Virus record (IMG/VR): IMGVR_UViG_3300028886_000153 | Coordinates: 1 to 45,385 of that record | Strand: one strand, 5' to 3' | Source: a virus | Length of the DNA: 45,385 bases | In this document: piece by piece, positions 21,507-37,429 of the stretch | Position numbering within the stretch: position 1 is the first letter of the stretch | Layout of the letters: every line of letters begins with the position of its first letter | Notes under the pieces: generated by a model | Told to the model about the DNA's origin: nothing | The model's input: the letters and a program-made list of their open reading frames with translations, nothing else | Databases searched by the model: none | Position numbers and translations under genes: made by a program

Positions 21507-21536
21507 GGTATCAATTAGATACCTTACATTTTTTAT
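21504..21536 (+). terminator. rho-independent terminator GTAAGGTATC-aattag-GATACCTTAC + T-run, stop codon in stem
   Basis: 10-bp perfect stem. Confidence 0.6.
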
Positions 21537-21551
21537 TAGGAGGGATTACAT

Positions 21552-23201
21552 ATGGCTAAAGTATTAATGATAGGCCACGCCAATGGAGATGAAAAAGGCG
21601 GTGCTTCTGGTGGTGCGGCTGGCGATTAGACCGGAAGAGAAGTATGTATATAGAAATGGTATTCAAGTGGAAGTGGATGGAATTTTGTATTACGTCCAAA
21701 ATCACCAATAATAGCAGAAAAAATGGCCGCTGCTTGCGAATGGATATGTGCTAGTAATTTAGTGGGATACGATCAAAGTCAAAGAAATACTCTTTATAAT
21801 GAATTAGAAAAGTTAAATTGGGATTATAAAAAACTGACTACTAAATGCGAAACAGACTGTTCCGCTTTTATGGGGACTTGCGCAAAAATTGCTGGTTCTA
21901 ATGTATAGAGAGTCTATGGTAATTGTTGTTACACCGGAAATCAAGTGGATTTATTTATGAAGACTGGAGATTTTATTAAACTCACAGATCCTAAATATTT
22001 AAATCAATCTACTTATTTACAACGAGGTGATGTATTGGTCCGTCATAATCCTATAACAAATGGTGGACATACTGCTATGGTTTTAGGCTGGAAAGAAGAC
22101 GGAGTAATAACTCCAATATCAACAATTAATAATGGATCATTAACAAAAACATAGATCAAAGCAATGCAAGCATATTACAATACAACTGCGGATGGTCAAT
22201 GGGGACCAAATTCTACTAAAGCTGCCGGTGGTCTTGGAGCAGATGAAGCTTGGAAAAAATATAGTGCAGCTGTGCCAGGAGATATAGACTTTGGAACTGG
22301 ATACATTTGCCGCAAAATTCCATTATCTAAAATAGAAAAAATTCAATACTATACAAATACTTCTAAAACAAAAACTTTAGATATTATAATGCAAGAAACA
22401 GGTGCAGACTATGGTATTAATGGTGTTCTATACGATATGCGTACCTGGAAACCTTGTGAAAATATAAAAGCAAACGGAGTAATTATTGCTTCGCAGCCAG
22501 CTTGGTCTAATGAAGGTTTTTATTGGACAACCGGTGCTGATATAAAGTGGGGTTATGTCCCTCTTGAAGCAGGAAAAGCTGAAAATTATATTCCAGGAAA
22601 TGGCTTAATAACCAACTTAAATTATAAATTAGCAGTAAATTGGAATGCTGAATTATCCGGGAATCGCGGTCGTACATTAGTCGGTCTTGATAATGCTAAC
22701 AATGTAGTAATTTATCAATCTTTAGATGGAACAGCCGCCGCATTAACGCCAATAAAAGCCAGAGATAAAATGGTTCAATTAAATTGTGTAAAGGGTGCTT
22801 TAAATCTTGATGGTGGTTCTTCTGTTGGCTGGTATGACAAAGCCCACCATTTATATAATAAACCAGGTAAGGGAACTGTTTAGAACTATATTTTATTTTA
22901 TTTTAAAGGAAATAATAGTATAGATACTTCACCTTCAACTAAACCTTCACAAAATTCAAATCCATATCCTGTTCCTGCTAGAACATTAAACAAAGGCTCT
23001 AAGGGAGAAGATGTAAAATATGTTCAATATATTTTATATAAGATGGGATACGGAAAAGGCACATTGTCAAGTTTTGTAGATGGTGATTTTGGATCAAATA
23101 CTGAAACTTCTGTTAAAATGTTTCAAAAATCAGCAGGATTAAAGCAAGACGGAATTGTTGGAGTAAGAACCCTATCATAGTTGCAGAAATGGAAGGGATA
23201 A
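21552..23201 (+). CDS. multidomain endolysin: N-terminal NlpC/P60- or CHAP-like cysteine peptidase, central phosphodiester-glycosidase-like domain (LDGGSS), two PG_binding_1-like repeats; 549 aa, 6 TAG
   Basis: Cys motif TDCSAF + GDVLV..GGHTAMVLG; C-terminal YVQYILYKMGY..VDGDFGSNTETSVKMFQKSAGLKQDGIVG peptidoglycan-binding signature; TTAGGAGGGATTACATATG RBS; ORF-track pieces 21723/21945/22164 are one frame joined by TAG. Confidence 0.7.
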
Positions 23202-25565: not shown

Positions 25566-26342
25566 ATGAATTTTATTTACTGTTTTACAAATTTAATAAA
25601 TTAGAAAAAATATATTGGTTCAAGTTGTTCTGAAAATCCTTCTCGGAGATATTCTTAGCATATGTATTTTGTAAATCATCCAGAATAGCCAAAAGGTCAG
25701 TATCCACTATATTGTGCTATCCGCAAGTATGGAATAGAAAATTTTTCATATACTATTTTAGAATATTTACCGGATGATATTTCAGAGGATAAATTGCGTG
25801 AAATTGAACACGATTATTTGATAAAAAATAATGTATTAGTGCCAAATGGGTATAATCAAACATTAGATACTAAACATCCTAGAAATGACCCTCTTATTTA
25901 TCAAAAAGTTCGTGAAACTAAACGAAATAATGCAAAAAGAGTGGCAGAAATTGATAATAATCAATAGATAATACAAATTTGGAGAAGTATTGTTGATTGT
26001 GCCGAACAAACAGGATATAATGAAAGGCATATTGCTGATTGTTGTAGAGGAGAACGTAAATCAACAGCAGGAAAGATGTTTTGTTGGATTAATGATGAAG
26101 ATGAATTATTAATTCCTACTTATCATCGTAATCTTTATAAAGGATAGCCCGGAACTACACAAATATAGTCTTCAAGTAGGAAAGTCGCTAAAATAGATGA
26201 AGATAATAATATTTTAATGATTTATGATACTTTGGCATTAGCGGCAAGAGAAAACAATTGTGATAGTAGTGCTATTTCAAAAGTTTGTAAAGGAATACGA
26301 AATAAATGTGGAGGATTTAAATGGTAGTATGTCAATGAATGA
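25566..26342 (+). CDS. free-standing GIY-YIG homing endonuclease (258 aa, 7 TAG)
   Basis: IYCFTNLINQKKYIGSS..R..H GIY-YIG motif; C-terminal NUMOD-like helix (VAKIDEDNNILMIYDTLALAAREN); sits directly upstream of the topoisomerase gene, like T4 seg/mob genes. Confidence 0.7.
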
Positions 26343-27851
26343 AATAAAAGATAAAACATTATATACAGAAGATAGTATTGAAAGTTTGGCTCCGCTGGAA
26401 TTCACACGTCTGCGGCCGCAAGTATATGCTGGAGACTGCACTTACTCAACCTAGCTGTTAGTTGAAATCTTTTCTAATGCTGTTGACGAGTTTAGATTAG
26501 GTCATGGTAATAAAATTGAAGTAACCATTGATAAAGACATAGTATCTGTACGAGATTATGGTCAGGGTTTTATTCCAAATAGCTTCAGGGATGATGGAAA
26601 GACAATCCTTGAGGCTGCTTTTAGTGTCCTGAATACTTCCGGTAAATACCGCGAAGACGGAACATATGAAGGAACTTCTCTTGGTTCATTCGGTATTGGC
26701 TCTAAAATAACTACATTCCTTTCCCATTGGCTGCATGTAAGAACGTGGAGAGATGGAAAAACAGAAAGAGTTGCTTTCAAAGAAGGCGTTTTTGATGTAA
26801 GAGGATCTTTAGAAGAATCTTCTGACCCAAAGGAAACAGGAACTTTTGTAACTTGGCAACCAAGCGAAGAATTTTTTACTCATACAGAAGTAAATATTAA
26901 CGAAGTAAAAAATTTATTTAAAACTATCGCTTGTCTTTGTCCTGGTCTAACCATTGAACTTAATGATAATGGTACAAAAACAACTTATAGTTCTAAAAAT
27001 GGTATCAGCGATTTGGTTGATGAAGCGGTCAAAGGGAAAGAGTTGATTGATCATCGTTTCAATCTTCAATTTGCGAATGGGAAAAATAAGATTGATATGG
27101 TTATGACATATACATCTAATTATTCAATGACTATGGTGCCTTATGTCAACACAGGTCTTACTTCTGTTGGTCCGCATATCACTCAAATTAAAGCACTTCT
27201 TACAAGGGAATTTAACAAGTTCTTCAAAGACAAGAAGTGGATTAAAGATGGTGAAGATAACCTCTCCGGCGAAGATATCCAAGAGGGACTTTACATTGTA
27301 TTTAATATTACTGCTCCAAATGTGGCCTACGATGCGCAGGTAAAAACTCGTGTAACAAAATTGGAAATGAGTCCATATACTGCGGCGATTGCCGAGGAAA
27401 TGCGTATTTGGCTGGCCTCAAATGAAAAAGAAATCAAAGCAATTGCGGATAAGGCTAAAATGGCAAAGAAGGCTCGTGAGGCTGCCGCAAAAGCCAGAGA
27501 TGCAGTTCGTGATAAGCAAGCTAAAAAGGAAAAAGCTCTAAAGTTTGATTCTAAATTAGCAGATTGTTATAGCAAAGATAGAAAGAAATGCGAACTTTAT
27601 ATTACAGAGGGTGATTCTGCTTCTGGAAACCTCAAGCAAGCAAGAGATAATGAGTTCCAGGCAGTACTTCCTGTTCGTGGTAAAATTTTGAATACCCACA
27701 AAGCAGGAGTTGATAAAATCCAGAAAAATGCTGAAATTATGACAATGATGGATGCTTTTGGATTGGAAATCGACCCAAGAACAATGAAAGTTACCTATGA
27801 TAAGAATAAAATTAGATATGGTAAGATTATTATTATGAGCGATGCCGACGT
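26329..27851 (+). CDS. type II DNA topoisomerase large (GyrB/T4 gp39-like ATPase) subunit, exon 1
   Basis: LEFTRLRPQVYAGD..VDE (GyrB N-terminus), GHKL ATPase region, Toprim ELYITEGDSASG, ends ..IIIMSDADV at the DADVDG motif; 1 TAG. Confidence 0.8.
26411..26420. repeat. TGCGGCCGCA palindrome copy 5 (topoisomerase exon 1)
   Basis: exact 10-mer. Confidence 0.9.
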
Positions 27852-28061
27852 CAATAAACCGGCGTATGAAAGACTTTTCGCCTAATCCGGCGGGTAAAAT
27901 TTTCGGACAAAACATATTTATGTGACCCATACGGTTCTCATATAAATATGAAAGAGAAAAAATTTTGCTAACGGGGAACCCTAAACCGTAAGGCATGGGA
28001 ATCCCGTGGGAAACAAATATTTATCCATTCTCTTTCAAATATATAATGAAGGAGAATAAAA

Positions 28062-28775
28062 ATGATAGGAATTTATAAAATCACTGAAATTGATAATCCT
28101 AACAATTTTTATGTTGGGTATAGTAATAATATAAAAAGAAGATTTAAAGAACATCAATAGAAAACTTATGAACAATCTCGTATTCCTTTTGATGATGAAA
28201 TAAAGAAAAAAGGTATTGAATCTTTTACTTATGAAATTTTAGAAGAATGTTCTGTTGAGGAATTACCAGCACGCGAAAGATATTGGACTGATAAATTAGA
28301 AGCAACAAAAGCCGGTAATGTTTTTGATGGAGGAATAAGTAATTTAGTTGGTGAAAATAATCCAAATAAAAAGATTACAGAAGATGATGTAAAAATCATT
28401 CGTCAATCCTATGCTAAACATAAAAAACAAAAAGATGTATATGAGTAGTTCAAAGATAAAATTACTTTTAGTTACTTTCAAAATCTTTGGCAAGGACGGT
28501 CTTGGAGTCATATTATGCCAGAAGTTTTTACCGAAGAAAATAAAAATTATTATATTTATCAAAATAGTAATGGAAGTAATGGTGCTTCCGCAAAATTTAC
28601 TGATGATGAAGTAATAAATATTAGAAAAAGATATGTCAATGAAAGTGCTAAAAAAATATATGAAGATTATAAAGATAGAATATCTTTTCAATCTTTTCAA
28701 CAAATTCTTTGGGGTAGATATTACTCTGAACTTCCTATCTATAAGAAAAAAGAGAAAAAATGGATAAATATTTGA
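28062..28775 (+). CDS. intron-encoded GIY-YIG homing endonuclease (237 aa, 2 TAG)
   Basis: IGIYKITEIDNPNNFYVGYSNNIKRRFKEHQ; GAAGGAGAA RBS; in intron loop. Confidence 0.7.
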
Positions 28776-28867
28776 ACCTGTATCGACTATCCTCTTTGCC
28801 TTCTGGGCGGAGGAGTAGAGGTGCTATTGATACGCACTTCGAAATGGTCTCCTTGCGGTCATAATTT

Positions 28868-28883
28868 ACCTGCGGCCGCAGGT
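28868..28883. repeat. TGCGGCCGCA palindrome copy 6, part of longer palindrome ACCTGCGGCCGCAGGT in intron core
   Basis: exact 16-bp palindrome. Confidence 0.9.
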
Positions 28884-28926
28884 AAAAGTTAGTCAGTGCT
28901 TATGGAAACATAAGAATAAAAACACG

Positions 28927-29329
28927 CGATGGCGCTCATATTAAGAATCTTTTCTATACATTTGTGTGGAATTTCTGTCCACAGCTAATTGAAGATGGTT
29001 TTGTATATGCTGGTGTTCCACCTCTTTATAAAATCACTACAAGTAAGGGATATAAATATCTCAAAAATGACGATGATTTGAAGGCATATCAGAAAGCAAA
29101 TACTGGTAAGGCATATAAGGTCAATCGTATGAAGGGTCTTGGTGAGATGGATGTTGAAGAAACGGAAGAAACTCTTACCGACCCAGGACAAAGAATTATT
29201 AAGCAGGTTACAATTAGTGATGCTGATGCTGCTAAAAAATTATTTGATGATTTGATGGGAACTGCGGTTACTCCTCGAAAAGTCTATATTAAAGAACATA
29301 GTGAGGAGGCAACTTATAATGCAGAATAA
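28927..29329 (+). CDS. type II topoisomerase large subunit, exon 2 (T4 gp60-equivalent region)
   Basis: DGAHIKNLFYTFVWNFCPQLIEDGFVYAGVPPLYK..MKGLGEMD..LMGTAVTPRKVYI matches GyrB C-terminus. Confidence 0.8.
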
Positions 29330-29510
29330 TTGTCTTATATTACAATGCTCTCATAATAAAAATGGAAATTGTTTGGGGAAAATGTCTAAGCAATGTACAG
29401 ATTATCCTGTCGCAGAGTATCTTAGCACAGGACAGTTATTAGCAATTAATGCTCCAACAGAAGATGATATTAAATATATGGAATTTTGTAATGCGGAAGG
29501 AGAAAGCTGA
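29319..29510 (+). CDS. small Cys-rich protein
   Basis: GAGGAGG RBS; 63 aa. Confidence 0.35.
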   Translation: MQNNCLILQCSHNKNGNCLGKMSKQCTDYPVAEYLSTGQLLAINAPTEDDIKYMEFCNAEGES

Positions 29511-31858
29511 TGGCAAACGAAATTCTAACTGACCTTGTAAATGAACTTGGTACAAATTTCATAGAGTATGCGGTTGCTGTTAATACAGATCGCTCAATTC
29601 CCGACGCAAGAACAGGATTAAAACCAGTAGCAAAACGCATCCTCTATGACGCTTACACTACTGGATGTACTTCTTCAAAGCCTCATGTTAAGTGTGCCGC
29701 AATAGTCGGTGATACAATGGGTAGATTTCATCCACATGGCGATAGTTCAATTTATGGCGCATTAGTAAGATTATCAGAGGATTGGACTATGCGTTATCCA
29801 TTAATTGATTTTCACGGTAATAATGGTAACAGAGACGGTGATCCTCCGGCACATCAACGTTATTCAGAGGCTCGTTTGGCAAAAATTACTGAAGATGGTA
29901 TGTTGGTAGGAATGAAAAAGAATGTAGTTAATACAATTCCTAATTATTCAGAAACAGAAACTGAACCTGTCACTCTTCCATCTTACTTCCCAAATCTTCT
30001 TTGTAATCCAAACACTGGTATCGGTGTCGCAATGGCCTGTAACTGGGCTCCACATAATCTAAACGAAGTTGCGCAAGCAATCTTTGATTATATGGACGGA
30101 AAAGAGCCAATGATTCCTGGCCCCGACTTTCCAACGGGCGGTTTGATTACTAATAAAGATGATGTTCCTTCTATTATGAGAACTGGCCATGGTAGTGTAA
30201 AACTCCGAGGTAAATATAATATTGAAGGAAATAATATCATCTTTTATGAAATTCCATATGGCGTTGCCACAGAAGCACTTATGGAACAGATTGGTAAGGC
30301 TTGCGATGATGGCGATGTAGAAGGAATCAAACACATTCGCAATGAAAGTAACCGTAAAAAAGGTTTTAGATTGGTTCTTGAATGCGAAAAAGATGCTAAT
30401 TTGAATAAAACGATTATGCAACTGTTTAAAAATACAGATTTGCAGACCTCGTTTTCATATAATATGGTTGGTCTTGTCGGTAAAACTCCAACAGAGTTAA
30501 ACTTAAAAGACTGCTGTAAGATTTATATAGAGCATAATAATGAGTGTATTCGTAGAGAAACCGAATATGATTTAAAGAAAACTGAAGCAAAACTTGAAAT
30601 TGATGAAGGTTTGCTTAAAGCTCTTGAAGATATTGACAACATTATTGCTCTTATTAAGGCTTCAAAATCTGCGGCCGATGCTCGTGTGCAGCTTTGTGCC
30701 AAGTATAAGTTTACTGAACCCCAGGCGCAAGCAATCACTGATATGAAGCTCGGTAAATTGGCTAACCTTGAAAAAGTTGAGCTAAATGAGGAAATTGAAG
30801 GTCTTAAAGCAGAAATTAAACATTTTAATGCCGTTCTCGCAAATCCTCTTGATGAACTTAAAGTTCGTTTGAGAGCAATTGTTAGCAAATACGGCGATGC
30901 TCGTAGAACGGAGTTGATTCAAGTTGTCGAGCCGAAGGGCGACGAAGAGAAAAAAATTGCTGCAATACCCCCGGAAAAGTGTGTTGTACTCCTTACCGAG
31001 GCCGGATCAATTAAAAGAATTGCGGCGACTGCGTTCAGAGCTCAAAGACGCGCGGGTAAGGGTGTCAAGACTCAGGATGAGATTACTTCAGTAGTCATCC
31101 GAACAAACACAGTCGATAGTCTGATGATTTTTACCGACAAGGGTAATATGTATCGTCTGATTGTTGATGATATTCCAGAAGGAACGAACACCTCAAAAGG
31201 TATGCCTGTTCGTGCGCTCGTGTCTATGGAGCCTGGCGAAAATCCGACAGTTATCTATTCAATTTACCGCGATACAGATGCAAAATTCATTATATTTGTA
31301 ACCAAGCAAGGATATGTCAAGAGAAGTTCTCTTGATGAATATATCGGTATTAAAAAGAAAACTGGAACAAAGGCACTGAATCTTCACGAAGGTGACAGTA
31401 TTGCCACGGTATTCCTTGCAAATGACGAGCAAATTATTATTCTGTCTAAAGATGGATATGCTATTCGTTGTAAAGGAACAGAATTCCCCGCTACTGGACG
31501 TGTTTCTATGGGTTATAAGGGAATTAACTTGCGCGAGGGCGATGAAGTTATCACAGCTCTTCCAATCCGCAATCCTGATGATGATATTGCAATTTTCTCA
31601 AATAGCGGTCTTGGTAGACGAATTTCTTTGAAGAGTTTTACTCCTCAAACAAGAAATGGACGTGGAGTTGTGTACGCGAAAAACGCAGACGCAGCTGCCG
31701 CATGCCTGGTAACAGATGGAGATTTAATCCTCGTCTGCGGTGATAAGTCTTCTCTCTGTATCAAAGCTGAAGAGCTTATGGAAACAGAATCTAAGACTAC
31801 TGTTGGAAATATTGTAATCAAAGGAAATACACGAATTACAGGAGTAAGTAAAGTATGA
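29510..31858 (+). CDS. type II DNA topoisomerase subunit A (GyrA/ParC/T4 gp52-like), 782 aa, no TAG
   Basis: RSIPDARTGLKPVAKRILY, GRFHPHGDSSIY, active-site region AHQRYSEARLAK, beta-pinwheel C-terminus. Confidence 0.85.
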   Translation: MANEILTDLVNELGTNFIEYAVAVNTDRSIPDARTGLKPVAKRILYDAYTTGCTSSKPHVKCAAIVGDTMGRFHPHGDSSIYGALVRLSEDWTMRYPLIDFHGNNGNRDGDPPAHQRYSEARLAKITEDGMLVGMKKNVVNTIPNYSETETEPVTLPSYFPNLLCNPNTGIGVAMACNWAPHNLNEVAQAIFDYMDGKEPMIPGPDFPTGGLITNKDDVPSIMRTGHGSVKLRGKYNIEGNNIIFYEIPYGVATEALMEQIGKACDDGDVEGIKHIRNESNRKKGFRLVLECEKDANLNKTIMQLFKNTDLQTSFSYNMVGLVGKTPTELNLKDCCKIYIEHNNECIRRETEYDLKKTEAKLEIDEGLLKALEDIDNIIALIKASKSAADARVQLCAKYKFTEPQAQAITDMKLGKLANLEKVELNEEIEGLKAEIKHFNAVLANPLDELKVRLRAIVSKYGDARRTELIQVVEPKGDEEKKIAAIPPEKCVVLLTEAGSIKRIAATAFRAQRRAGKGVKTQDEITSVVIRTNTVDSLMIFTDKGNMYRLIVDDIPEGTNTSKGMPVRALVSMEPGENPTVIYSIYRDTDAKFIIFVTKQGYVKRSSLDEYIGIKKKTGTKALNLHEGDSIATVFLANDEQIIILSKDGYAIRCKGTEFPATGRVSMGYKGINLREGDEVITALPIRNPDDDIAIFSNSGLGRRISLKSFTPQTRNGRGVVYAKNADAAAACLVTDGDLILVCGDKSSLCIKAEELMETESKTTVGNIVIKGNTRITGVSKV

Positions 31859-37368: not shown

Positions 37369-37429
37369 AAAATTGGTCAAAATCCTTTCATACTATAAAA
37401 ATAATTTTTATATTTAATAGAATGGAGGA

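What the first reader, a model, noticed from the sequence alone, without database searches (positions are those of the whole stretch)
27852..28926. Group I intron with GIY-YIG HE splits the topoisomerase II large subunit at the DADV|DG motif, the same spot as the T4 gene 60 bypass and the gene 39/60 split
Exon 1 ends ..IIIMSDADV and exon 2 begins DGAHIKNLF.., restoring the universal GyrB DADVDGxHI motif. The 1075-nt insert has a td-intron-like core (TAACGGGGAACC..AATCCCGTGGG) and an HE ORF. In T4 the topoisomerase is broken near this position (gp39|gp60, and the 50-nt hop after ..DADHDG). This position therefore looks like a recurrent landing site for mobile elements across distant phages.
Basis: partly seen in the sequence, partly recalled or inferred. 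Interest (0 to 1): 0.6.

Follow-up and report, generated by a model that had tools for sequence, protein, structure and literature searches.

The report
Self-splicing intron in phage topoisomerase gene
A 1,075-base mobile group I intron carrying its own homing endonuclease interrupts a phage GyrB-like topoisomerase gene inside its metal-binding motif. Related introns in other uncultivated phages sit at four staggered points within 12 bases of this spot, one of them exactly where phage T4 has its 50-nt ribosome 'hop'.

Summary
Window 27852-28926 interrupts a GyrB-like topoisomerase II large-subunit gene between ..IIIMSDADV and DGAHIKNLF... Joining T27851 to C28927 restores a 641-aa protein, and intron-less alleles in related phage contigs are continuous at that bond.

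The insert is a td/Twort-like (IA2-type) group I intron:
- U.G wobble pair at the 5' splice site and a terminal G.
- P3-P9 supported by covariation in relatives.
- A covariance model built only from relatives hits the window (97 bits). It also hits the experimentally proven Twort and td introns.
- Rfam's generic model stays below its threshold.

A 237-codon GIY-YIG endonuclease gene lies in the P6 loop. It has two in-frame TAG codons, which this phage reads as glutamine.

The 'recurrent landing site' idea holds. One related intron clade occupies four bonds within 12 nt of the DADVDG codons, including the exact T4 gene 60 hop position. The window's site is 4 nt upstream of that position. The T4 39|60 split is not the same spot.

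Splicing and homing are inferred, not shown. This is a new member of a known kind, of moderate interest.

The parts
26329..27851 (+). Exon 1 of the GyrB/ParE-like topoisomerase II large-subunit gene. The probable start is ATG 26329 (MSMNEIK...), with GGAGGA at 26310-26315. There is one in-frame TAG at 26452-26454, read as Gln. The exon ends with GT of the Val508 codon.
   Evidence: Translation. Pfam HATPase_c, DNA_gyraseB and Toprim, and PHROG 543. The TAG aligns to Q in 79 of 82 homologues.
27852..28926 (+). Group I intron (IA2-like), 1,075 nt. It is preceded by U27851 and ends with G28926.
   Evidence: Absent from intron-less alleles. Homologous introns at the same bond occur in L101, L115, L119, L188 and L167. 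Supported by covariation and by the covariance model R1 hit.
27848..27865 (+). P1 and the internal guide sequence. Exon ACGU (27848-27851) plus intron C27852 pairs with GGCGU (27861-27865), and U27851.G27862 is the wobble pair at the 5' splice site. C27860-G27861 can pair with exon 2 C28927-G28928 to form P10.
   Evidence: Predicted in the minimum-free-energy fold. All six alleles at this site keep GACGT plus GGCGT. The guide sequence changes with the site: GGC at DA|DV, GACG at V|D, GCCG or GCCA at DG|x, the last covarying with a GAC or GAT codon.
27871..28035 (+). 5' half of the ribozyme core: P3 5' strand 27871-27875; hairpin A 27879-27892; hairpin B 27896-27966; J3/4 plus P4 27968-27976; P5/P5a 27979-27999; P4' 28002-28007; P6 28008-28009; P6a 5' strand 28015-28029.
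   Evidence: Coordinates. Per-helix covariation. The P4 G-C to A-U switch is perfectly correlated across 89 sequences.
28062..28775 (+). GIY-YIG homing endonuclease ORF (237 codons plus a TGA stop) in the P6 loop. AGGAGA lies at 28050-28055. In-frame TAG codons are at 28158 and 28446. The last ~25 nt double as the 3' strand of P6a.
   Evidence: Pfam PF01541 (E 4e-10), PHROGs 314 and 5123 homing endonuclease. Homologous ORFs occur in all ORF-bearing relatives. TAG = Gln.
28749..28926 (+). 3' half of the ribozyme core: P6a 3' strand 28759-28773; P6 28777-28778; P7 28785-28789; P7.1 28791-28813; P7.2 28818-28840; P3' 28846-28850; P8 28851-28882; P7' 28890-28894; P9 with a GAAA loop 28899-28914; terminal G 28926.
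   Evidence: Model R1, built without the window, matches 28774-28919 at 97.3 bits, E 5e-16. P7.1, P7.2 and P9 are 92-100% paired in 49 relatives.
28927..29329 (+). Exon 2. It begins with the third base of the Val508 codon, then DGAHIKNLF..., and ends at TAA 29327-29329. It has no in-frame start codon of its own.
   Evidence: The Pfam DNA_gyraseB_C hit at residues 569-630 lies in exon 2.

Best explanation
Window 27852-28926 is a mobile group I intron of the phage td/Twort (IA2-like) type. It is inserted in the Toprim DxDxDG metal-binding motif of a phage GyrB/ParE-like topoisomerase II large-subunit gene.

Proposed mechanism:
1. The gene is transcribed through the intron and the intron RNA folds into the P3-P9 core.
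2. A free guanosine attacks after U27851, which pairs as a U.G wobble with G27862 in P1.
3. The terminal G28926 then occupies the guanosine site in P7.
4. The exons are ligated to GAC GT|C GAT GGC, restoring ...DADVDG... and a 641-aa protein.

A GIY-YIG endonuclease gene lies in the P6 loop. It is translated with TAG read as glutamine, as in the rest of this phage. It presumably cuts intron-less alleles of co-infecting relatives near the same codons, so that repair copies the intron in (homing).

Shown here: the precise interruption; intron-less alleles; helices supported by covariation; similarity to experimentally proven ribozymes; the GIY-YIG domain; TAG = Gln.

Inferred, not shown: actual splicing, endonuclease activity and target, and homing.
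For: - Intron-less alleles are continuous exactly at the proposed junction. The spliced product matches topoisomerase II large-subunit profiles in one stretch, with Toprim spanning the junction.
- The insert belongs to a family found on at least 119 IMG/VR contigs. In every topoisomerase case examined, the intron follows a T and ends in G.
- On 20 family members, 90.3% of cells pair versus 69% in shuffles and about 40% when the partner is slid. 55 of 86 pairs show compensatory changes, and 0 of 500 shuffles reach the observed values. P3, P4, P5, P6, P7.1, P7.2, P8 and P9 all covary. P3 is also supported by a self versus non-self test.
- Model R1, built from 49 relatives without the window, hits the window at 97 bits. 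It also hits the Twort orf142 intron (39.2 bits, E 2.6e-5) and a T4-type td intron (37.5 bits, E 5e-5), full length in each case. It finds nothing in T4 positions 1-7000 or in the five intron-less loci searched (L001, L002, L003, L005, L016).
- An ORF-less intron at the same bond (L167) gets a full-length Rfam RF00028 alignment with E 8e-4.
- The ORF-deleted intron folds with z = -7.7, and the fold includes P1 with the U.G pair.
- The endonuclease has a GIY-YIG domain above Pfam's cut-off. TAG aligns to Gln in 79 of 82 homologues.
Against: - No RNA data exist for this phage, so splicing is inferred.
- Rfam RF00028 does not reach its gathering score: 11 bits for the window and 24 bits for the ORF-less relative, against 50.
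- P1 has only 4-5 pairs.
- Two hairpins lie between the 5' strand of P3 and J3/4. In td and Twort, P3 abuts J3/4 and P2 lies upstream of P3.
- P8 of the window carries an extra 17-nt stretch not seen in relatives.
- The endonuclease is truncated at codon 33 if TAG were a stop. No suppressor tRNA lies in the window.
Confidence: 0.9

Rival explanations
1. The intron is real and splices, but its endonuclease gene is a decaying pseudogene. The two in-frame TAG codons would be nonsense mutations, so the element is no longer mobile.
For: There are two in-frame TAGs at 28158 and 28446. No tRNA gene lies in the window. ORF-less derivatives of the same intron exist, for example L167.
Against: Reading TAG as sense raises + strand ORF coverage from 68% to 88%. 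Essential genes, including the topoisomerase itself, carry in-frame TAG aligned to Gln. The rest of the ORF is full length and 237 codons long. Its GIY-YIG motifs and the C-terminal KKKEKKWINI are conserved among homologues, which also carry scattered TAG (or TGA at Trp positions) without frameshifts.
Confidence: 0.07
2. The insert is a non-splicing insertion of a free-standing endonuclease cassette. The gene would then be dead, or expressed as two polypeptides that reassemble, as T4 gp39 and gp60 do.
For: T4 and relatives tolerate a split large subunit (bioRxiv 10.1101/2022.08.31.505936). Rfam does not call a group I intron at its curated threshold.
Against: Exon 2 has no start codon or ribosome-binding site before Asp509. 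The break falls inside the DxDxD metal site. The 360 nt flanking the ORF form a ribozyme fold that is supported by covariation and resembles td and Twort. The guide sequence tracks the exon sequence at each insertion site.
Confidence: 0.03
3. The interruption is an assembly chimera, or the intervening sequence is an intein.
For: The window comes from an uncultivated source, and mobile repeats can mislead assemblers.
Against: The same arrangement at the same bond is seen on five independent IMG/VR contigs. The exon 1 frame runs into TAA at 27883-27885 after 11 codons, and no Hint domain is found, so it is not an intein.
Confidence: 0.01

Closest known systems
Phage T4 td intron with I-TevI (group IA2; GIY-YIG endonuclease ORF in the P6 loop)
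   Same: - The P4-P6 core sequence is nearly identical (CUAACGGGGAACC...AAUCCCGUG against td CUAAACGGGGAACC...AAUCCCGUG).
- The 3' half has the same layout: CGACUAU, P7.1, AGUAG, P7.2, CGAAA, P3', P8, AUAGUC, P9.
- Model R1 hits td at 37.5 bits.
- The endonuclease ORF sits in the P6 loop and has an N-terminal GIY-YIG domain.
   Different: - The host gene is a topoisomerase, not thymidylate synthase.
- There is no hairpin between P1 and P3. Instead two hairpins lie between P3 and J3/4.
- There is no P9.1/P9.2 extension.
- The endonuclease is only distantly related to I-TevI, with a different C-terminal region made of two ~50-aa repeats.
- The ORF contains recoded TAG codons.
Staphylococcus phage Twort orf142 introns (IA2, ORF-less; self-splicing has been shown and a crystal structure exists)
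   Same: P7.1 and P7.2 are present. The GAAAUGG-P3' junction and a GAAA L9 loop are shared. R1 hits the Twort intron at 39.2 bits, full length. Several introns occur in one gene, as in relatives of the window.
   Different: The Twort introns have no endonuclease ORF, and they have a canonical P2 upstream of P3. The host gene is a structural gene.
T4 MobA / gene 60 bypass cassette in the topoisomerase II large subunit (Bonocora et al. 2011, from my own knowledge; Manning et al., bioRxiv 10.1101/2022.08.31.505936)
   Same: It is a mobile endonuclease element that targets the Toprim region of the same gene. The 50-nt coding gap lies after DADHDG, the bond used by related introns L084, L087, L090, L110, L159, L171 and L195. 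That bond is 4 nt from the window's site.
   Different: The interruption is resolved by ribosomal bypass and a split gene, not by RNA splicing. The endonuclease is HNH-type and sits between the two ORFs. There is no ribozyme.
Group I introns of gut and rumen phages (crAss-like, Jug, Lak phages)
   Same: Many introns and homing endonucleases interrupt replication genes of uncultivated phages, some of which use alternative genetic codes (PMC12880540). The conserved 3' core of this family also matches Lak and Enterococcus phages by blastn.
   Different: No paper in the searched library describes introns in the topoisomerase Toprim DxDxDG motif or their staggered sites.

Membership tests
Group I intron | Precise interruption of a gene, with flanks that join to restore the reading frame and conserved motif | tested here: met
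   Joining 27851 to 28927 restores DADVDG. Intron-less alleles are continuous at that bond.
Group I intron | 5' splice site after a U that forms a U.G wobble in P1 with an internal guide sequence, and a G as the last intron nucleotide | tested here: met
   U27851.G27862 lies within the ACGUC/GGCGU helix and G28926 is terminal. All relatives in topoisomerase genes follow T|...G|, and their guide sequences match their own exon.
Group I intron | Conserved core P3-P9 with the P3/P7 pseudoknot, supported by covariation | tested here: met
   90.3% of cells pair, 55 of 86 pairs are compensatory, and 0 of 500 shuffles reach this. P7 is invariant, so it is uninformative.
Group I intron | Match to Rfam RF00028 at or above the gathering score (50 bits) | tested here: not met
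   The window scores 11.1 bits (E 9), with the 714-nt ORF in P6. The ORF-less introns in L167 score 24.2 and 24.5 bits, E 6-8e-4, full length.
Group I intron | GTP-dependent self-splicing | not testable with these tools
   This needs in vitro transcription or RT-PCR.
Subgroup IA2 (td, Twort type) | Extra helices P7.1 and P7.2 between P7 and P3' | tested here: met
   P7.1 is at 28791-28813 and P7.2 at 28818-28840. They are 98-100% paired with compensatory changes. A family model detects td and Twort.
Subgroup IA2 (td, Twort type) | P2 hairpin between P1 and P3, with P3 directly followed by J3/4 | tested here: not met
   P1 is followed within about 5 nt by the 5' strand of P3. Two covarying hairpins (27879-27892 and 27896-27966) lie between P3 and J3/4.
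GIY-YIG homing endonuclease | N-terminal GIY-YIG catalytic domain above the curated cut-off | tested here: met
   PF01541 scores 40.2 bits against a cut-off of 22.6. PHROGs 314, 5123 and 19446.
GIY-YIG homing endonuclease | Uninterrupted, translatable ORF | tested here: inconclusive
   The ORF is intact only with TAG = Gln. That reading is well supported for this phage, but no suppressor tRNA lies in the window.
GIY-YIG homing endonuclease | Site-specific cleavage of the intron-less allele | not testable with these tools
   This needs a biochemical assay.
Intein | In-frame fusion with the host protein, with Hint domain blocks | tested here: not met
   The exon 1 frame stops at 27883-27885, and there is no Hint hit.
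Gene 60-type translational bypass | Short (~50 nt) gap with matched take-off and landing codons and a stop after take-off | tested here: not met
   The gap is 1,075 nt and contains a gene. Compare T4.

The most novel reading that the evidence does not exclude
One intron-plus-endonuclease lineage has repeatedly re-targeted itself among at least four phosphodiester bonds within 12 nt of the Toprim DxDxDG codons, each time with a matching change of guide sequence. The bonds are DA|DV, GT|C of the Val codon, V|D and DG|x. The last is the exact bond of the T4 gene 60 hop, so unrelated mobile elements converge on the same few nucleotides.

The same lineage has two further unusual properties. Its ribozyme has its two peripheral hairpins between P3 and J3/4. 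Its endonuclease genes carry the recoded stop codons of their host phage (TAG = Gln in some, TGA = Trp in others). That ties endonuclease expression, and possibly cross-code mobility, to the phage's genetic code.
Probability: 0.5. Interest if true: 0.6.

Novelty: new member of a known kind. Interest (0 to 1): 0.45.

Why it matters
- Annotation: the interrupted topoisomerase is one functional gene. Two stacked complications hide it from standard pipelines: a group I intron, and TAG recoding in both the host gene and the endonuclease.
- Staggered sites: four insertion bonds within 12 nt are occupied by each other's closest relatives. This is a natural series for studying how a group I intron changes its insertion site by changing its guide sequence.
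- Convergence: one of these bonds is the T4 gene 60 hop position. That supports the view that the Toprim metal-site codons are a preferred homing-endonuclease target, and that insertions there protect against cleavage.
- Reagents: the family (at least 119 contigs) provides material for ribozyme and endonuclease engineering. It also shows that Rfam's generic model under-detects phage IA2-like introns.

Tried and rejected
- Rfam at gathering threshold on the whole window found nothing. At a permissive E-value on 27750-29050 it gave only an 11-bit RF00028 match. The long ORF in P6 and the generic model explain this, since ORF-less relatives reach 24 bits.
- An exact 42-mer of the P4-P5 core found nothing in IMG/VR. 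The 16-mer ACCTGTATCGACTATC worked.
- blastn of the region against cultured phages found only an Enterococcus phage endonuclease. No cultured close relative exists.
- I looked for a canonical P3 directly upstream of CUAACG (AUUUUG/CGAAAU in the window). It is not conserved in relatives, so I rejected it in favour of the covarying AGACU/GGUCU helix.
- MAFFT misaligns P8 and partly P3, so P8 was left out of model R1.
- The promoter and terminator scan of the intron gave nothing above chance.
- The five synonymous differences from L001 clustered at -11 to +7 of the junction suggest co-conversion or selection for P1/P10 pairing. The numbers are too small to conclude.
- Intein, bypass, group II intron and chimera readings were considered and rejected (see rival explanations and the membership test).

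Full report
**What is at the coordinates.** The + strand carries a GyrB/ParE-like gene. It starts at ATG 26329 (MSMNEIK...) and reads ...YGKIIIMSDADV up to GT at 27850-27851. The frame then runs into TAA at 27883-27885. From 28927 the sequence reads (C)GAT GGC GCT CAT..., that is DGAHIKNLF..., to TAA at 29327-29329. No ATG, GTG or TTG lies in frame between the stop at 28883-28885 and Asp509. Joining T27851 to C28927 gives a 641-aa protein. It matches PHROG 543 (DNA topoisomerase II large subunit) in one stretch over residues 3-638 (E 1e-126). It also matches Pfam HATPase_c, DNA_gyraseB, Toprim (422-527, spanning the junction at residue 508) and DNA_gyraseB_C. A GyrA-like gene follows at 29510-31858.

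**Intron-less alleles.** A scan of IMG/VR with the spliced protein returned 80 loci from related uncultivated phages, with contigs up to 178 kb. Seventy-one of the 80 loci give a single tblastn alignment over nearly the whole protein, which rules out any insert. Two more (L039, L060) are single alignments that stop at the end of the locus. The remaining seven are uninterrupted at DADVDG but carry, or break off at, an insert at residue 578/579. The 17 alleles inspected at the nucleotide level are continuous across the site. The closest, L001 (90% amino-acid identity), reads GATGCTGACGT|TGACGGTGCT where the window reads GATGCCGACGT[1,075 nt]CGATGGCGCT.

**The insert belongs to a large intron family.** Seven of the 80 relatives carry, or break off at, a roughly 1-kb insert at a different place in the same gene (MKG|LGEM, residues 578/579). 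Its 3' part is clearly homologous to the window's insert and shows compensatory changes. Forty-seven of these contigs have it in topoisomerase large-subunit genes. Seventeen members lack the ORF. One of them, L167 5765-6111, sits at exactly the window's bond and is 84% identical to the window's ribozyme.

**Secondary structure.** I derived a model from the relatives and mapped it onto the window.

| Element | Window coordinates |
|---|---|
| P1 | 27848-27852 with 27861-27865 (U27851.G27862 at the splice site) |
| P3 | 27871-27875 with 28846-28850 |
| Hairpin A | 27879-27892 |
| Hairpin B | 27896-27966 |
| P4 | 27971-27976 with 28002-28007 |
| P5/P5a | 27979-27999 |
| P6/P6a | 28008-28029 with 28759-28778 (the ORF lies in the loop) |
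| P7 | 28785-28789 with 28890-28894 |
| P7.1 | 28791-28813 |
| P7.2 | 28818-28840 |
| P8 | 28851-28882 |
| P9 | 28899-28914 (GAAA loop) |
| Terminal G | 28926 |

- On an alignment of 20 members, 90.3% of cells form standard pairs, against 69.0% in shuffles and 38-44% when partners are slid.
- 55 of 86 pairs have changes on both sides.
- No shuffle out of 500 reaches any observed measure.
- P3 is supported separately. The 5' strand pairs with its own 3' region far better than with those of other members, with many different sequences at the same position.
- P4 switches between G-C and A-U in perfect correlation across 89 sequences.
- The ORF-deleted intron folds with z = -7.7. The minimum-free-energy fold reproduces P1, both hairpins, P6, P7.1, P7.2 and P9.

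**Link to proven group I introns.**
- Rfam's only group I model (RF00028) does not reach its gathering score. The window gives 11 bits. The two ORF-less introns of L167 give 24.2 and 24.5 bits (E 6-8e-4), with full-length alignments that place P4-P6, P7 and P9 as in my model.
- I built a covariance model (R1) of the 3' half (P7, P7.1, P7.2, P9) from 49 IMG/VR relatives, excluding the window.
- R1 hits the window at 28774-28919 (97.3 bits, E 5e-16).
- R1 also hits the Twort orf142 intron (39.2 bits, E 2.6e-5) and a T4-type td intron (37.5 bits, E 5e-5), full length in each case.
- R1 finds nothing in T4 positions 1-7000 or in the five intron-less loci searched (L001, L002, L003, L005, L016).
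- By eye the core is close to td: CUAACGGGGAACC...AAUCCCGUG against td CUAAACGGGGAACC...AAUCCCGUG.
- P7.1 and P7.2 place the intron with subgroup IA2.
- One feature does not fit. td and Twort have P2 between P1 and P3, and P3 abuts J3/4. In this family P1 is followed directly by the 5' strand of P3, and two covarying hairpins lie between P3 and J3/4. I flag this as real in the comparative data but unexplained.

**The endonuclease and the genetic code.**
- The ORF 28062-28775 has an AGGAGA ribosome-binding site and an N-terminal GIY-YIG domain (Pfam 40.2 bits against a cut-off of 22.6, plus homing-endonuclease PHROGs).
- It has two in-frame TAG codons, at 28158 and 28446.
- This is not decay. 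Reading TAG as sense raises + strand ORF coverage of the window from 68% to 88%.
- The topoisomerase itself has an in-frame TAG at 26452, which aligns to Gln in 79 of 82 homologues.
- No tRNA gene lies in the window.
- The last codons of the ORF (KKKEKKWINI) overlap the 3' strand of P6a and are conserved in homologues.

**The landing-site claim.** T4 gp60 reads ...IMTDADHDG, then the 50-nt gap, then LGSIY.... This aligns with the window's IIMSDADVDG|AHIKN. The hop therefore lies at the DG|x codon boundary, 4 nt downstream of the window's insertion bond. The gp39|gp60 break is 46 codons upstream of the hop, within T4-specific extra sequence. This agrees with Manning et al. (bioRxiv 10.1101/2022.08.31.505936). 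It is near the window's site, not the same spot.

Among IMG/VR relatives, introns of this family occupy four bonds within 12 nt:

| Site | Bond | Members | Guide sequence |
|---|---|---|---|
| a | DA\|DV | L085, L173, L183, L179, L161 | GGC |
| b | GT\|C of the Val codon | window, L101, L115, L119, L188, L167 | GCGU |
| c | V\|D | L197 | GACG |
| d | DG\|xH (the T4 hop bond) | L084, L087, L090, L110, L159, L171, L195 | GCCG (GAC codon) or GCCA (GAT codon) |

- Each site has its own guide sequence complementary to its own exon. At site d, the guide sequence covaries with the Asp codon (GCCG with GAC, GCCA with GAT).
- Ribozyme identity to the window is 78-84% for site b, 77% for c, 70-77% for d and 65-71% for a. 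It is about 59% for introns in other genes and about 56% for the KG|LGE site.
- The DADVDG cluster is therefore one clade that has shifted site, not a set of independent colonisations.
- Their endonucleases are one family, with two N-terminal subtypes mixed across the sites.
- The same family also sits at ITEG|DSA (428/429) and KG|LGE (578/579). Two introns were seen in the topoisomerase gene of four loci (L173, L183, L167, L198).

**Literature.** Two full-text searches found no description of group I introns in the topoisomerase Toprim motif. The bypass-cassette preprint reports MobA, GIY-YIG, VSR and intein elements in this gene, but no intron. Abundant introns in gut phages are known (PMC12880540).

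**Verdict.** This is a bona fide-looking group I intron with a homing endonuclease. It is ordinary in kind and new in host site. It has a neighbourhood of staggered sister introns and a recoded endonuclease gene. Splicing, cleavage and homing remain inferences. Confidence that it is a splicing group I intron is about 0.9.

Noticed in passing
window 1-45385 (for example TAG at 26452, 28158, 28446; ORFs 21507-23201, 37418-38356): TAG is a sense codon throughout the window. Reading it through raises + strand ORF coverage from 68% to 88%, and window TAGs align mainly to Gln in homologues (109 Q of 188 aligned cells; 79 of 82 in the topoisomerase). Replication genes are affected, not only late genes. 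No tRNA gene lies in the window.
   Followed up: partly
window 43564-44598: A second group I intron of the same family (R1 hit at 44477-44594, 106 bits). It splits a DNA primase gene (PHROG 47, E 5e-30) at ...AIVFEG|EKSCL..., with P1 AGGGU/GCCCU. It carries its own GIY-YIG plus HTH endonuclease ORF (43762-44479) with five in-frame TAG codons. L108 carries a near-identical copy.
   Followed up: partly
L062, L100, L110, L159 (endonuclease ORFs inside the introns): Homologous intron endonucleases in some relatives have TGA where others have TGG (Trp), for example L110 QYwITKL and NLwQGRSW. The same intron/endonuclease family therefore lives in phages with TAG = Gln, TGA = Trp and apparently standard codes.
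   Followed up: partly
L173, L183 (ITEG|DSA, residues 428/429); L062-L073, L092, L100 and many others (KG|LGE, 578/579); L167, L198: The same intron family occupies two further conserved motifs of the topoisomerase large subunit. Four loci carry two family introns in the topoisomerase gene: L173 and L183 (428/429 plus DA|DV), and L167 and L198 (the DADVDG region plus KG|LGE). In L167 both introns lack an ORF.
   Followed up: partly
window 27879-27966, and all family members: Two covarying hairpins lie between the 5' strand of P3 and J3/4. Hairpin A has a conserved (A/U)AUC loop. In td and Twort, by contrast, a P2 hairpin lies between P1 and P3. I do not know of this arrangement in described IA2 introns.
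   Followed up: partly
window 28851-28882: P8 of the window contains an extra ~17 nt (TCATAATTTACCTGCGG) that includes a near-duplicate of its own 5' strand (CCTTGCGG / CCTGCGG). Two alternative P8 hairpins are therefore possible. Relatives at the same site have a simple P8.
   Followed up: no
L193 ~3400-3640; L107: A member of the same intron family appears to be inserted inside a GIY-YIG endonuclease-like ORF (...YKITNQKDNMCYIGQA|...). That would be an intron within a homing endonuclease gene.
   Followed up: no
window 27840-27851 and 28927-28935 versus L001: Five of the seven nucleotide differences from the closest intron-less allele within +/-60 nt of the junction cluster at -11 to +7, and all are synonymous. 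This is compatible with co-conversion or with selection for P1/P10 pairing.
   Followed up: partly
window 29301-29510: A small 69-codon ORF (Cys-rich, MRRQLIMQNNCLILQCSHNKNGNCLGKMSKQC...) lies between the GyrB-like and GyrA-like genes.
   Followed up: no
family P5 and L9 (window 27979-27999 and 28905-28908): Many members have CCUAAG...UAUGG in P5, which resembles the 11-nt GAAA tetraloop receptor (identified from my own knowledge), together with a GAAA loop on P9. The window has the variant CCUAAA...CAUGG. This suggests an L9-P5 tertiary contact.
   Followed up: no
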